NCBI RefSeq assembly: GCF_009914755.1
Contig: NC_060933.1
From: the human T2T-CHM13v2.0 reference genome, Homo sapiens
Direction: 5' to 3' (one strand)
Length of the DNA: 64,000 nt
Shown here: in pieces, positions 25,345 through 32,805 of the stretch
Layout of the letters: each line of letters begins with the position of its first letter
Numbering within the stretch: the stretch's first letter is position 1
Translations under genes and position numbers: made by a program
Notes under the pieces: model-generated
The model's database searches: none
Told to the model about the DNA's origin: nothing
The model's input: the letters and a program-made list of their open reading frames with translations, nothing else

Positions 25345-25577
25345 TTTACCTCTTTTATTTTACCATTGTATTGGAGGTTCTAGCCAAGATAAAATAATTA
25401 AACGAATAATAAAGTAAAGGCATTCAGATTGGAAAGGAAGAGGTAAAATTAGCTCTACTTGCAGATGACATTACCTTTATATAGAAAACCCCAACAATGC
25501 CACTAAAAAAAATTATTGGAACTAATAAACAAGTTCAGCCTGACGGCAAGGTACAAGATCAATATACAAAAATTGTA
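25345..25577 (+). mobile_element. L1M ORF2 fragment, left part of a split element
   Basis: ggaaaggaagaggtaaaa...tgcagatgaca...aagatcaatatacaaaaattgta; continues at 31364. Confidence 0.88.
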
Positions 25578-26240
25578 GGGGCCCGGCCCTGCACAGCGCC
25601 CTGGGGAAGCTGGTTTGAAAGCTCTGGAGCGACCCCAGTGCCGGGTAAAGGACAAGATTTGCCCAGACAGAAGGGAACTTGGGGAGAGGTGGCCGTAAGA
25701 GTGTGGGATGAAAATGTTTTGGGCAGAGCGGTCGAACTCACCTGAGGAAAGCATGGGGGGAGGAGTCATTAATATGAATGAGTGGCAGGGACAGGGCGTC
25801 CTTGCAGCGCCCTCGGTGTTGGAAGGGAAGACCGTGCAGCGCGATGGGGATCAGGGCGGCGGGCCGCAGCAGCCGGGGTGGGGTTGGGCGCCGGTCAGGG
25901 TGCCTTGAAGCAGATTCTGTCCTCAGGAGCTGCAGTTCTTCCTCCTCCGCCCTCACCGGCGGGCGACCTTAGGCAGGGAGTGAAATGCAACGGGAGCCCT
26001 GGAGGGAGGGTGAAGCCGCGCGTGCAGGAGGAACCTCCTATTGGCGAGTTCAGGTCCCCCAGCTGCGGAGGTGGGGGACCCTGTGTGGCAGCCTGCTGAG
26101 CGGCTGCTTCCTCCGCGGTTGGAGGGGGGAAGCTCTAGCCCCCCTCCTCTTTTTCAGCCGAGAAACCGCTAGTTACCCCCTTATGCAACCAAGACTGTAA
26201 TAACCCTGTCACCTTTCACGGCCCTCCGGGTCTGCGCCCA
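25578..26240. promoter_or_regulatory. CpG-rich promoter-like island at the 5' end of the retroposed insert
   Basis: Abrupt switch to GC/CpG-rich sequence; GC boxes; CCAAT on minus strand (26040-26044); CAG|GTGAGT on minus strand at 25736-25744. Confidence 0.7.
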
Positions 26241-26434
26241 TCCTCTGAGTATTCACTCATCCACCCCGAGGCCTGTTTTCCTCACCTGTTGTCCCTCTGG
26301 CAGAACTTAGGCCCCTCGGAGACCAGCCAGCATCTATCTGCCCGCTGTTCCCACCCACCACACTCCCTCCCCAGTTCTATCCCAGCTCCTTAAACTGTTG
26401 GAGTTCAAACCTCAGACCATGACAGCACACAGGC

Positions 26435-26530
26435 CTGGACTCCGGTATGGCCCTGGACAAGTTCCTTAATCTCTCTGAGCCTCAGCTTTCTTCCACGTGA
26501 AGCAGCGGTAACATTGTTATTAGGAGCCTC
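26435..26530 (+). mobile_element. MIR fragment
   Basis: ggacaagttccttaatctctctgagcctcagctttc core. Confidence 0.65.
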
Positions 26531-26756
26531 CCGGCCCCAGCACACCGACATACATACAACTGGATATCCATCCTGCCTGTGAGGAGTCGTCTTTACTTTG
26601 GGTTGTTTCTTGTCCACAGAGGTCCACACTTTATTTTCCTGGAGGCACCAGCGGAGTCACTGATGCACCCCTGCATCCAGCATGTTTAAGGGAGACAGTC
26701 TGGGGAGGGCAGGAAGAGCCTAGAGGGTCCCCTAGTGATTAGGGCTGTGATGGGGA

Positions 26757-27374
26757 TGTTACTGGAAAAGGGTCCCTATCCAGACCCTAAGAGAGGGTTC
26801 TTGGACCTCCTGCAAGAAGGAATTTGGGGCAAGTCCATAAAGTGAAAGCAAGCTTATTAAGAAAATAAAGGAATGAAAGAATGGTTACTCCATAGGCAGA
26901 GCAGCGGCATGAGCTGCTCGACTGACTATACTTACGGTTATTTCTTGATCATATGCTAAACAAAGGGTGGATTATTCATGAGTTTTCCGGGAAAGGGGTG
27001 GGCAATTCCTGCAACTGAGGGTTCCTACCCTTTTTAGACCCTATAGGGTAACTTCCTGATGTTGCCATGGCATTTGTAGACTGTCCTGGCACTGGCAGGA
27101 GTGTCATTTAGCATGGAAATACATTATAATTAGCATATAATGAGCAGTGAGGATGACCAGAGGTCACTTTCGTCACCATCTTGGTTTTGGCTGGCTCCTT
27201 TACTGCATCCTGTTTTATCAGCAAGGTCTTTGTGACCTGTATCTTGTGCGGACTTTCTATCTCATCCTGACTTAGAATGCCTAAGCTAGTGGGAATGCAG
27301 CCTCACAGGTCTCAGCCTTATTTTACCCAGCCCCTATTCAAGATGGAATCGCTCTGGTTCGATCACCTCTGACA
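26757..27374 (-). mobile_element. MER41B solo LTR
   Basis: tgttactggaaaagggtccc...cacctctgaca; includes the GAS-bearing segment; TSD ggga/gggg. Confidence 0.85.
26985..26993. promoter_or_regulatory. GAS (STAT1) motif TTCCGGGAA in MER41B
   Basis: Exact TTCN3GAA; the second site at 27006-27014 is broken (ttcctgcaa). Confidence 0.6.
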
Positions 27375-27476
27375 GGGGCAGTGTACATTCACATCTTGGC
27401 CTTTGCTGCCTCATCCTTCCAGATCTTTCAGATGCTTGCCCTCTGGCATTCTAGGATAGGAAGACTGCTTCCAAAG

Positions 27477-30112: not shown

Positions 30113-30275
30113 AAACTCCTTTAAAGTCTCTCAACATGCTGTCCTATTAATAATAGATTTCTAAATTTGTTTTTATTTTTATCAAGGTTTTGTGTGCCCA
30201 TAGTTTGAAGTATTAAATCTTTTTTTATTTATTAAAATATTTTTTAATGTCCATTCAGAGGTAATGAAGTGTTAG

Positions 30276-30611
30276 TTTTTTTTTTTTTTTTTTTTTTTTT
30301 TTTTTTTTTTTTTTTTTTTTTTTTTTTTTGAGACAGAGTCTCGCTCTGTCACCCAGGCTGGAATGCAATGGTACAATCTCGGCTCACTGCATCCTCTGTC
30401 TCCCAGGTTCAAGCAATTCTCCTGCCTCAGCAACCCGAGTAGCTGTGATTACAGGCGCCCGCCATTGTGCCCAGCTAATTTTTGTATTTTTAGTAGAGAC
30501 AGGGTTTCACCATGTTAGTCAGGCTGGTCTCGAACCCCTGACCTCAGGTGATCCACCCGCTTTGGCCTCCCAAAGTGCTGGGATTACAGGTGTGAGCCAC
30601 TTTGCCTGGCT
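30276..30611 (-). mobile_element. AluS with 54-nt pure poly(A) tail
   Basis: T54 at 30276-30329; TSD tgaagtgttagtttt. Confidence 0.92.
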
Positions 30612-30757
30612 TGAAGTGTTAGTTTTATCTTTTTTTTTTAAAGAAAAGTAGTTCCCTTATCTCCACTTTCCCCCTTTCCTGCACCTCAGAGGCAACTGCT
30701 TTCAGCTGATTACTTTGACAGGTATGACCTTATTTCCACATAATTGCTTATGTCATT

Positions 30758-31022
30758 ATTTTTTTCTTTTTGAGGTAGGGTCTTGCTCTGTTGCCCAGGA
30801 GTGCAGTGGCGCACTTGTAGCTCACTACAACCTTGAACTCCTGGGCTCAAATGATCCTCTGGCCTCAGTCTCCTGATAAGCTGGGACTACAGGTACATGC
30901 TACCATGCCTGGCTAATTTATTTTCACAGAGACAAGGTCTCACTATGTTGCTTGGGCTGACCTCTAACTTCTAGGCTCAAGTGATCCTCCCGCCTCGGCC
31001 TCCCAAAGTGTTGGAATACAGG
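30758..31022 (-). mobile_element. AluJ interrupted near its 5' end by MER57
   Basis: ctcctgggctcaa/gatcctcc AluJ diagnostics; the last ~20 nt are missing. Confidence 0.85.
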
Positions 31023-31356
31023 TGTTGAAATCAAGTTTAGCCTAAAGCCGCCTCCTTATATATTTAAGTTTGGCCTAAAAGTTTGTCTGTATATTGTGAC
31101 AAGTGGAGGTGTAAACAGACTACACTTGTGCCAATCACTGAGTTTTGGCCAATGAAATGTAGCCAACTGTTCAAACCATGTTCAGATAAGGCAAATGCCA
31201 AGCTGCAGCCAAACCCAGCTGTTTCTGTACCTCACTTCCATTTTCTGTCCATAAACCTTCCACCGCATGACTGTGCTGGAGTGTCCGAGCCTACTCTGCC
31301 TGGGAAGGCTGCCCGATTCTTGAACTGTTTGTTGCTCAATTAAACTCCTTTAAATT
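31023..31356 (+). mobile_element. MER57-type LTR truncated at its polyadenylation site
   Basis: tgttgaaatcaagtttagcctaaagc start; ends ttgctcaattaaactcctttaaatt then poly(A); U5 terminus absent. Confidence 0.85.
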
Positions 31357-31363
31357 AAAAAAA

Positions 31364-32805
31364 AAAAATTGTATTTCTCTACTCTAGCAATGAACACTTC
31401 AAATTAAGACAATTCCATTGATAATTGCATCAAAAAAATGCTTAGAAATTAATTATTCAAAAAGAGCAAAAGTTATACCCTAAAACTACAAAACATACTT
31501 GAAAGAAGGTAAAAAAAAAAAGGAGTAAATAAATGACAAGACACCAATGTTCAGAGATTGGGAGACATTATTAAGATGGCTTTCCAAATTGATATACAGT
31601 CACCATGTCTCTATAGAAATCCCAACAGCCTTTTCTGTGGAAATTGACAAGCCCATCCAAAAATTCATGTGGAAATGCAAGGGACTCCTGATAGTCAAAG
31701 TAATCTCAAAAGTGAAGAGCAAATATGGAGTATGCACACTTCTCTATTTCAAAATTTACTACAAAGCTATAGTAATAATTACAGACTTGTACTGGCATAA
31801 GGATACACATATAGACCAATGGGATACAGCTAAGAGTCTAGAAATCAATGTTTACATTAATAGTTGATTTTCAACCAGAATGCCAAGGCTGTTCAATGGA
31901 AATAATAGTCTTTTCAACAAATGGTGTTGGGAAAACTGGATGTCACATGCTAACGACTGAAACTGGACCCTTTCTTCATATTTTATACAAAAAGTTACCT
32001 CAAAAATATATACTAAAATTTAATAGATAAAATTATAAAACTCTTAGAAGAGAGCATAGGGGAAAAAAATCTTCTTGACTTTAGCTTTCTTAGATATGAC
32101 ACCAAAAGCACAAGCAACAAAAGAAGAAAATAGATAAGTTGGACTTCCTATAATTTATACATATATGAATATATCACATTGTATCCCATAAATACACACA
32201 GTCATTATTTGTCAATTGAATTTTTTTTTAAAGAAAAAAAAAATTTTTTTTGAGGTGGAGTCTTACTCTGTCACCCGGGCTAGAGTGCAGTGGTGTGATC
32301 TTGGCTCTCTGCAATCTCTGCCTCCTGGGTTCAAGCAATTCTCGTGCCTCAGCCTCCCCAGTAGCTGGGATTACAGGTATGCGCCACCACACCAGGTTAA
32401 TTTTTGTATTTTTAGTAGAGACGGGGTTTCGCCATGTTGGCCAGGCTTGTCTTGAACCCCTGACATCAGGTGATCTGCCCACCTCGGCCTCCCTAAATGC
32501 TAGGATTACAGGCCTCAGCCACTGTGCCTGGCCAGAATTTTTGTAGTTCCAAAGATGCTACCAAGAAACTGAAAAGACGACACACAGAATGAGAGAAAAT
32601 ATTTGCAAATCATATATCTGATAAGATATTATATCCAGAATGTATAAAGAACACTTACCACTCAATAATAAAAAGACAAATAACCTAGTTTAAAAATGAG
32701 CAATAAATGTGACTAAAGATTTTTCCAAAGATTGGCCTGTGTGCTCATAGGAAGATGATCAACATTATTTGTCATTAGAACAATATAAATCAAAACCACA
32801 AAAAA
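31364..32805 (+). mobile_element. L1M (L1MB-like) ORF2, right part of the split element
   Basis: ORF 31547-31867 (KFMWKCKG...FKIYYKAIVI...YWHKDTHIDQW) is L1 ORF2; interrupted by Alu 32244-32533. Confidence 0.9.
32244..32533 (-). mobile_element. AluS
   Basis: Full Alu on minus strand. Confidence 0.9.

What the first reader, a model, noticed from the sequence alone, without database searches (positions are those of the whole stretch)
25568..31373. 5.8-kb retroposed non-coding RNA hidden inside an old L1
Seen: an L1M ORF2 fragment stops at ...aatatacaaaaattgta (25577) and resumes at aaaaattgtatttctc (31364), giving a 10-bp TSD at a TTTT/G endonuclease-like site. The insert ends in an A-run starting 12 nt after the ATTAAA of a MER57 LTR. 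The LTR's U5 end is missing, as is the last ~20 nt of the AluJ that the LTR interrupts. The insert starts with a G-run in a CpG-rich island. Established: TSD plus poly(A) after a poly(A) signal are hallmarks of L1 target-primed reverse transcription. Inference: a long, apparently unspliced transcript running from a CpG-island promoter to an LTR poly(A) site was copied here, carrying old MIR/MLT1/L1MC/AluJ/LTR cargo. It has no ORF and is mostly repeat-masked, so retrogene pipelines would probably miss it.
Basis: partly seen in the sequence, partly recalled or inferred. Interest (0 to 1): 0.9.

Follow-up and report, generated by a model that had tools for sequence, protein, structure and literature searches.

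The report
Retrocopy of an unspliced noncoding RNA
A 5.8-kb stretch inside an old L1 on chromosome 9 is a reverse-transcribed copy of an unspliced, apparently non-coding transcript from chromosome 2; it is a tidy example of a well-known process, not a new one.

Summary
Window 25578-31356 plus an A-run (31357-31368) lies between two exact copies of AAAAATTGTA, which are the only two in the window. The insert interrupts an L1 that is continuous in other genomic copies.

The whole insert matches one chr2 locus, C2:88028346-88034116, as a single colinear alignment of 94.3% over 5815 columns. Homology stops at both duplications. In the parent, the LTR runs 30 nt past the copy's end and the rest of the interrupted Alu follows, with no A-run.

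The copy ends 12 nt after ATTAAA. It starts 146 nt inside an 850-bp CpG island, where GC skew flips from negative to positive. No intron-sized gap, sense ORF over 86 aa, or Rfam hit was found.

Three more chr9 copies share both junctions and the L1 flanks, so they are later segmental duplicates.

Verdict: this is an L1-mediated retrocopy of an unspliced intergenic transcript made beside KRCC1. It is a new member of a known kind, of modest interest. No outgroup empty site and no present-day transcription data could be examined.

The parts
25341..25577 (+). Left part of the target L1 (ORF2 region), cut by the insertion
   Evidence: Other L1 copies match window 25341-25573. It is colinear with the right flank in 5 other L1 copies.
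25568..25577 (+). 5' copy of the target-site duplication AAAAATTGTA
   Evidence: One of only 2 occurrences in the window.
25578..31356 (+). Body of the retrocopy, colinear with C2:88028347-88034116
   Evidence: Single HSP of 94.3% over 5815 columns. Substitutions number 259 against 5483 matches, and the largest internal gap is 17 nt.
25578..26281 (+). CpG-island part carried in from the parent (parent island C2:88028201-88029050)
   Evidence: 37 CpGs are shared with the parent, 9 are parent-only and 5 are chr9-only. CpG loss here is slower than in the rest of the insert.
26437..26494 (.).
   Evidence: 11 short matches elsewhere in the genome to query positions 860-917.
26755..27375 (.). Interspersed repeat of about 620 nt, present in parent and copy (family not named here)
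   Evidence: 4857 first-look candidates. All 35 long matches listed outside the five loci are 83-85% identical and cover roughly query 5-625.
29472..30113 (.).
   Evidence: Matches of 66-79% identity at many loci to query positions 933-1574.
30267..30626 (-). Antisense Alu with its own 14-nt duplication (gaagtgttagtttt), already present in the parent
   Evidence: Only a 17-nt poly-T length difference separates it from the parent.
30756..31025 (-). Older antisense Alu interrupted by the LTR; its last ~22 nt are absent from the copy
   Evidence: The parent shows GGTGTGAACCATCGTACCTGGC after the LTR.
31026..31356 (+). Sense solo LTR truncated at its own poly(A) site; the last 27-30 nt (U5) are absent
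   Evidence: The chr9 copies stop at position 334 of 361, while 30 of 35 other genomic copies reach position 355 or beyond.
31339..31344 (+). ATTAAA poly(A) signal, 12 nt before the A-run
   Evidence: read directly.
31357..31368 (+). Untemplated A-run (12 A; the last 5 overlap the duplication)
   Evidence: The parent reads TAATTTGG at this point.
31364..31373 (+). 3' copy of the target-site duplication AAAAATTGTA
31374..31800 (+). Right part of the target L1 (ORF2 region)
   Evidence: (1495 candidates, matches of 68-72% identity).

Best explanation
An RNA polymerase II transcript of about 5.77 kb was made on the + strand of chr2. It started in the left part of an intergenic CpG island (near C2:88028347) and ran unspliced through old repeats and two Alus. 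It was cleaved and polyadenylated 12-15 nt after the ATTAAA of a sense solo LTR (near C2:88034116).

L1 endonuclease and reverse transcriptase then nicked a TTTTT/G site inside an old L1 on chr9. They primed on the poly(A) tail and copied the RNA to its 5' end, or close to it. This left a 10-bp target-site duplication.

Parent and copy differ by 4.4-4.6%, which places the event very roughly 15-25 million years ago. That date is an inference from recalled primate divergence values. The chr9 block, with its L1 flanks, was later copied to three more chr9 pericentromeric sites by segmental duplication (0.9-1.9% apart).

Shown: the parent locus, the boundaries, the A-run, the LTR truncation, colinearity and the later duplications.
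Inferred: L1 as the enzyme source, the 5' end being a true start site, the RNA being non-coding, and the date.
For: - Parent locus: a single colinear HSP joins window 25577-31356 to C2:88028346-88034116 (94.3% of 5815 columns). No other HSP touches window 22000-25576 or 31357-32243.
- Only source: it is the only non-chr9 full-length hit for the 5', middle and 3' query blocks.
- 3' end: the parent continues with 30 nt of LTR and the rest of the Alu, and has no A-run. The LTR in the 4 chr9 copies stops at 334 of 361, whereas 30 of 35 other copies reach 355 or beyond.
- Duplication: the two copies of the TSD are the only two in the window.
- Target: the L1 flanks are contiguous in other L1 copies.
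- Unspliced: no gap exceeds 17 nt inside the alignment.
- 5' end: the parent's CpG island spans 88028201-88029050. GC skew switches from -0.33...-0.03 to +0.15...+0.36 at L011 ~8300-8400, and the copy starts at L011 8347. An octamer-like ATTTGCAT, a CACCC motif and a GC-box-like motif lie within 60 nt upstream (motif names recalled).
- Later duplication: the chr9 paralogues share both junctions and the flanks at 97-99% identity.
Against: - No outgroup genome could be examined, so the empty site is inferred only from paralogous L1 copies.
- No CAGE, RNA-seq or annotation of the parent locus was available. Present-day transcription, the exact start site and the non-coding status are therefore untested.
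- L1 retrocopies are often 5'-truncated, so the 5' end could be a truncation point that happens to fall in the island.
- The nick site is TTTTT/G rather than the textbook TTTT/A.
- The A-run is short, at 7-12 nt.
- The first 17 nt of the copy carry 2 mismatches to the parent, which blurs the exact first base.
Confidence: 0.87

Rival explanations
1. RNA-mediated copy as above, but 5'-truncated. In this reading the template was a longer transcript: read-through from upstream, a long terminal exon or retained intron of a larger gene, or an 'orphan' 3' transduction from an upstream L1. The 5' end is then not a start site.
For: 5' truncation is common in L1-mediated insertions (established knowledge). 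No direct start-site data were available. A second GC-skew reversal at L011 8900-9300 shows the island is not a simple one-direction promoter.
Against: The 5' end falls 146 nt inside an 850-bp CpG island, exactly at the negative-to-positive GC-skew switch. Queries from the window's L1 flanks and 10 other L1 copies, covering a ~700-nt part of ORF2, found only one 300-nt fragment of 60-62% identity (88022868-88023167) in the 68 kb upstream. The same queries recovered the window's own L1 pieces as a control. Hits of query L035 were set aside because that segment carries an Alu-like piece.
Confidence: 0.1
2. A DNA-level event: a chr2 fragment was copied or captured into chr9 by segmental duplication or double-strand-break repair, with no RNA intermediate.
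For: The region is a pericentromeric duplication hotspot. The chr9 copies themselves spread by DNA-level duplication.
Against: Homology ends exactly at a poly(A) site 12 nt after ATTAAA and is replaced by an untemplated A-run. A 10-bp duplication sits at a T-rich nick site. No chr2 flank is shared on either side.
Confidence: 0.02
3. Reverse direction: the chr2 locus is the derived copy and chr9 is the source.
For: None beyond the symmetry of any pairwise match.
Against: The chr2 locus has the complete LTR with its own 5-bp duplication GGTGT inside a complete Alu, and no A-run or flanking duplication. The chr9 copy is the truncated one and sits inside a split L1.
Confidence: 0.01

Closest known systems
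L1-mediated processed pseudogenes / gene retrocopies (target-primed reverse transcription acting in trans)
   Same: A target-site duplication, an untemplated A-run after a poly(A) signal, a T-rich nick site, homology limited to the transcribed unit, and the upstream promoter left behind.
   Different: The template shows no intron removal (colinear with the genome) and has no sense ORF over 86 aa. At 5.8 kb it is also long for a retrocopy. Survey methods start from protein-coding, intron-containing parents (review PMC5470649, passages read), so a copy like this would not be sought.
Intron-containing or 'semi-processed' retrocopies
   Same: A retrocopy of an RNA that still holds sequence colinear with the genome. 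The review notes such copies may be overlooked (PMC5470649).
   Different: Here there is no evidence that any part of the parent is ever an intron. The whole unit may be a single-exon transcript.
lncRNA-derived pseudogenes
   Same: A retroposed copy of an apparently non-coding polymerase II transcript.
   Different: This class is little catalogued. Two phrase searches of the held library found no paper whose listed title or abstract is about such copies (5 papers for the 6 phrases, 2 for the 6). One 2025 review calls them an open challenge (PMC12747553, one passage read). Papers outside the library were not searched.
Orphan L1 3' transductions
   Same: Unique genomic sequence inserted with an A-run and a duplication, and no L1 sequence of its own.
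   Different: No source L1 was found in the 68 kb upstream of the parent segment. The 5' end coincides with a CpG-island skew switch.
Retrocopies that inherit parental promoter or CpG-island sequence (Carelli et al. 2016, PMC4772013)
   Same: The copy carries about 700 nt of the parent's CpG island and has kept it CpG-rich.
   Different: That paper reports about 3% of expressed retrocopies inheriting a parental promoter (passages read). Those arose from upstream alternative starts. Here only the part downstream of the presumed start was copied, and expression of the copy is untested.

Membership tests
L1-mediated retrocopy (processed-pseudogene type insertion) | Flanking target-site duplication of about 7-20 bp | tested here: met
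   Exact 10-bp AAAAATTGTA at both ends, the only 2 copies in the window.
L1-mediated retrocopy (processed-pseudogene type insertion) | 3' A-run absent from the parent, just downstream of a poly(A) signal | tested here: met
   ATTAAA at 31339-31344 and the A-run from 31357. The parent reads TAATTTGG there.
L1-mediated retrocopy (processed-pseudogene type insertion) | Insertion at an L1 endonuclease-type site (TTTT/A-like on the nicked strand) | tested here: met
   The bottom strand reads TTTTT/G. This is a variant of the recalled consensus rather than the consensus itself.
L1-mediated retrocopy (processed-pseudogene type insertion) | Homology to the parent confined to the transcript, with no shared flanks | tested here: met
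   The HSP ends at 25577 and 31356, and no flank HSPs occur.
L1-mediated retrocopy (processed-pseudogene type insertion) | Introns of the parent removed | tested here: not met
   The copy is colinear with the genome and the largest internal gap is 17 nt. The copy is unspliced, so it counts as a retrocopy but not as a 'processed' one in the strict sense.
L1-mediated retrocopy (processed-pseudogene type insertion) | Empty (uninterrupted) site in an outgroup species | not testable with these tools
   No primate genomes are held. As a substitute, the flanks joined with one duplication copy align colinearly with 5 other L1 copies. 8 of 16 other L1 loci match both flanks.
Long non-coding RNA (parent transcript) | Longer than 200 nt with no substantial sense ORF | tested here: met
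   The insert is 5.77 kb. The sense ATG-ORFs of 80 aa or more are an 82-aa one that starts in the L1 flank and an 86-aa one. No Rfam family matched.
Long non-coding RNA (parent transcript) | Observed as a transcript (annotation, cDNA, CAGE) | not testable with these tools
   No annotation or expression data for the chr2 locus were available. A gene table in PMC10742694 (one passage read) names nothing next to KRCC1 on the MIR4435-2 side.
Orphan L1 3' transduction | Source L1 directly upstream of the parent segment, in the same orientation | tested here: not met
   Only one 300-nt fragment of 60-62% identity lies 5.2 kb upstream within the 68 kb searched.
Segmental duplication | Similarity continues through the flanks | tested here: met
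   Met for the three other chr9 copies (97-99% across 24039-33000). Not met for chr2. Duplication therefore explains the chr9 copy number but not the origin.

The most novel reading that the evidence does not exclude
The copied CpG-island segment may have stayed unmethylated in the germline at its new chr9 home, and in the three later duplicates. If so, it would act there as a promoter or enhancer seed. One retroposed lncRNA 5' end would then have founded a small family of pericentromeric CpG-island elements.

The retrocopy may also be a ~20-million-year-old record of a bidirectional promoter on chr2. Its other arm may drive an unannotated KRCC1-like gene, an intact 249-aa ORF 12.9 kb away on the - strand.
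Probability: 0.15. Interest if true: 0.5.

Novelty: new member of a known kind. Interest (0 to 1): 0.3.

Why it matters
- It is a clean, fully bounded case showing that L1 machinery copies long, unspliced, repeat-laden non-coding transcripts as well as mRNAs. Retrocopy surveys built on protein-coding, intron-containing parents would not look for such copies (PMC5470649).
- The copy preserves the 5' and 3' ends of an ancestral transcript. It implies that an intergenic CpG island beside KRCC1 was active in the germline or early embryo of an ancestral ape, and that a solo LTR supplied the transcript's poly(A) site.
- It also shows how one retroposition can be multiplied four-fold by pericentromeric duplication.
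- None of this changes current understanding of the mechanism.

Tried and rejected
- Rfam over 25000-32000: 0 matches at gathering score.
- Pfam on the KRCC1 ORF and the KRCC1-like ORF: 0 families each. The name came from the protein atlas instead.
- Atlas look-up of the KRCC1-like ORF: not possible.
- Homology between the parent's CpG island and the KRCC1 promoter island: none found. Between the two gene-sized blocks, only a 103-nt coding stretch matches, at 77%. A recent tandem duplication including promoters is therefore not supported.
- First L1 screen upstream of the parent: unusable because the query loci carried Alus. It was repeated with trimmed queries.
- Literature phrase searches for lncRNA retrocopies: nothing specific. 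One search failed on a term that was too short and was re-sent.
- Repeat family names: could not be checked.
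Full report
**What is in the window**

The sequence reads ...CAATATACAAAAATTGTA|GGGGCCCGGCCC... at 25577/25578. At the other end it reads ...CTCAATTAAACTCCTTTAAATT-AAAAAAAAAAAA-TTGTATTTCTC... around 31339-31379.

The 10-mer AAAAATTGTA occurs twice in the 64-kb window on both strands, at 25568-25577 and 31364-31373. Shuffles give a mean of 0.62, and 11 of 100 shuffles give 2 or more anywhere. 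A pair somewhere in the window is therefore not rare. Its placement exactly at both ends of the chr2 homology is what carries weight.

ATTAAA lies at 31339-31344. Twelve bases follow, then 12 A's (31357-31368). On the bottom strand the 5' duplication boundary reads TTTTT/G.

**The flanks are one L1**

The right flank has 1495 first-look candidates in the genome, and scored matches are 68-72% identical. Of 16 other L1 loci fetched, 8 match both flanks.

In an alignment with 5 of those loci, the left 100 nt and right 100 nt (with one duplication copy) are colinear with them. Only 4-5 nt are missing in the window row, and both duplication copies share that state.

This is a stand-in for an orthologous empty site. 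A true empty site could not be examined.

**The parent**

The first 1173 nt of the insert gave 16 hits in the own genome: the window itself, three other chr9 sites (98%), one chr2 site (93%) and 11 short repeat hits. The middle block (26751-28539) and the 3' block (28540-30270) hit the same five loci and otherwise only repeats.

BLAST of window 22000-35000 against C2:88020001-88040000 gave one colinear HSP. It joins window 25577-31356 to C2:88028346-88034116 at 94.3% over 5815 columns. No other HSP touches window 22000-25576 or 31357-32243.

A global alignment has 5483 matches, 259 mismatches and 23 gap runs. The largest internal gap is 17 nt, in a poly-T. Non-CpG sites differ at 181 of 5456 (3.3%) and CpG sites at 78 of 286.

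**The ends in the parent**

After the point where the copy turns into A's, chr2 reads TAATTTGGCTGAAGTTTTTCTTTTATCACA. That is the rest of the LTR, ending in CA. Then comes GGTGTGAACCATCGTACCTGGC, which is the LTR's 5-bp duplication plus the rest of the antisense Alu. No A-run is present.

A genome search with the 361-nt parent LTR scored 40 of 2517 candidates. The four chr9 copies end at position 334, while 30 of 35 long matches elsewhere reach position 355 or beyond. The copy therefore ends at the LTR's own poly(A) site.

One chr9 paralogue reads T where the others read the first A, so the cleavage point is 12-15 nt after ATTAAA.

Upstream of the copy's first base, chr2 remains CpG-rich. It carries ATTTGCAT, CCCACCC and GGGAGGCGTGG within 60 nt. 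The readings of these as octamer, CACCC and GC boxes are recalled, not tested.

**Is the 5' end a start site?**

The parent's CpG island spans 88028201-88029050 (850 bp, 57 CpG, GC 0.62). The copy begins 146 nt inside it.

GC skew on the + strand runs -0.33 to -0.03 over L011 8000-8399, and +0.15 to +0.36 over 8300-8899. The switch therefore falls at the copy's start, L011 8347. A negative-to-positive skew switch at CpG-island start sites is recalled knowledge, so this counts as support and not proof.

Skew turns negative again at 8900-9300, and I cannot explain that.

An upstream L1 as the source (orphan 3' transduction) is not supported. Trimmed L1 queries found only a 300-nt fragment of 60-62% identity, 5.2 kb upstream, within the 68 kb searched. 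The same queries recovered the window's own L1 pieces. Hits from query L035 were set aside because its segment contains an Alu-like piece.

**Coding potential and RNA families**

Five ATG-ORFs of 80 aa or more overlap the insert. The sense-strand ones are 82 aa (starting in the L1 flank) and 86 aa. Rfam gave 0 matches at gathering score over 25000-32000.

**Cargo**

Own-genome matches mark these stretches as repeats:
- 26437-26494
- 26755-27375
- 29472-30113
- the Alu at 30267-30626, with its own 14-nt duplication
- the older Alu at 30756-31025
- the LTR at 31026-31356

Together they make about 2.3 of 5.8 kb, which is a lower bound. All of them are present in the parent, so they predate the retroposition. 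Family names were not checked.

**Later history**

The three other chr9 copies align to window 24039-33000 at 97-99%, across both junctions and the L1 flanks. All 3 share the 5' junction string. Two of the 3 have the exact 3' duplication, and the third has one substitution in it.

The copies differ from each other by 0.9-1.9% and from the parent by 4.4-4.6%. 194 of 5708 columns are fixed differences between the parent and all four chr9 copies. The history is one retroposition followed by segmental duplications.

Using recalled human-ape and human-macaque divergences, the insertion is very roughly 15-25 million years old.

**CpG fate**

In the first 750 columns, 37 CpGs are shared, 9 are parent-only and 5 are found only in the chr9 majority. 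In the rest of the insert the counts are 34, 28 and 30.

On the copy lineage, loss is 9 of 46 in the island part against 28 of 62 elsewhere (Fisher p = 0.007). On the parent lineage it is 5 of 42 against 30 of 64 (p = 0.0001). Copy and parent do not differ within the island part (p = 0.39).

The copied island part has thus decayed slowly. That fits germline hypomethylation, but a GC-context effect could also explain it.

**Neighbourhood of the parent**

A 259-aa ORF lies on the - strand at C2:88039086-88039862, 5.0 kb beyond the parent's poly(A) site. The protein atlas holds it letter for letter, and its nearest cluster is named Lysine-rich coiled-coil protein 1 (score 0.97).

An intact 249-aa ORF on the - strand at C2:88014589-88015335 is 33% identical to it (E = 5e-33). 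It lies 12.9 kb left of the island. The two CpG islands are not similar to each other.

A gene table in PMC10742694 (one passage read) lists no named gene next to KRCC1 on the MIR4435-2 side.

**Literature**

- Review PMC5470649 (passages read) says surveys start from protein-coding, usually intron-containing genes, and that intron-containing retrocopies may be overlooked.
- PMC12747553 (one passage read) calls lncRNA-derived pseudogenes a harder, open problem.
- Two searches of six phrases each for lncRNA retrocopies found 5 and 2 papers, none on the subject judging by the listing.
- PMC4772013 (passages read) reports that about 3% of expressed retrocopies inherited a parental promoter and that many novel retrocopy promoters overlap CpG islands.
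- Supplements were not opened.

**Verdict**

This is an L1-type retrocopy of an unspliced, apparently non-coding, LTR-terminated transcript from beside KRCC1, later quadruplicated on chr9. The mechanism is textbook. The value lies in a well-bounded example of an under-catalogued class and in its record of an ancestral transcript.

Noticed in passing
L041:4589-5335 (- strand) = C2:88014589-88015335: An intact 249-aa ORF, 33% identical to KRCC1 (E 5e-33) and sharing its N- and C-terminal motifs. In my reading of the translated upstream frame, a pyrimidine-rich stretch that looks like a splice acceptor precedes the ATG. It lies 12.9 kb from the parent's CpG island, on the strand that a divergent promoter would serve. 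The atlas does not hold this exact sequence.
   Followed up: partly
L011:8900-9300 = C2:88028900-88029300: A second GC-skew reversal (to -0.37) inside the parent's CpG island, about 600 nt downstream of the presumed start. It is unexplained and could mark a - strand start.
   Followed up: no
L014 (C9:39610600-39619600), alignment columns 4591-4922, near window 30150-30300: This chr9 paralogue alone carries an extra 332 nt inside the insert. It arose after the segmental duplication. An Alu-sized insertion or a local duplication are both possible.
   Followed up: no
window 16827-17419: Another piece of an old L1 from the same ORF2 region, on the opposite strand (61-63% identical to the L1 queries). 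It turned up in the control.
   Followed up: no
window 24655-25216: The hub's RefSeq 'enhancer' element ends 360 bp before the insertion site and lies outside the retrocopy. Whether its signal relates to the nearby copied CpG island is unknown.
   Followed up: no
L038:4091-4708 (+ strand) = C2:87984091-87984708: A 206-aa open frame with a Cys-rich stretch, a hydrophobic stretch and PPxY-like motifs, about 44 kb left of the parent. It was not identified.
   Followed up: no
L015 (C9:78543000-78552000), 3' junction: This paralogue reads AAATTT + A11 + CTGTA. Its first post-cleavage base matches the parent (T), and its duplication copy has one substitution. This leaves the exact cleavage point ambiguous at 12-15 nt after ATTAAA.
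   Followed up: partly
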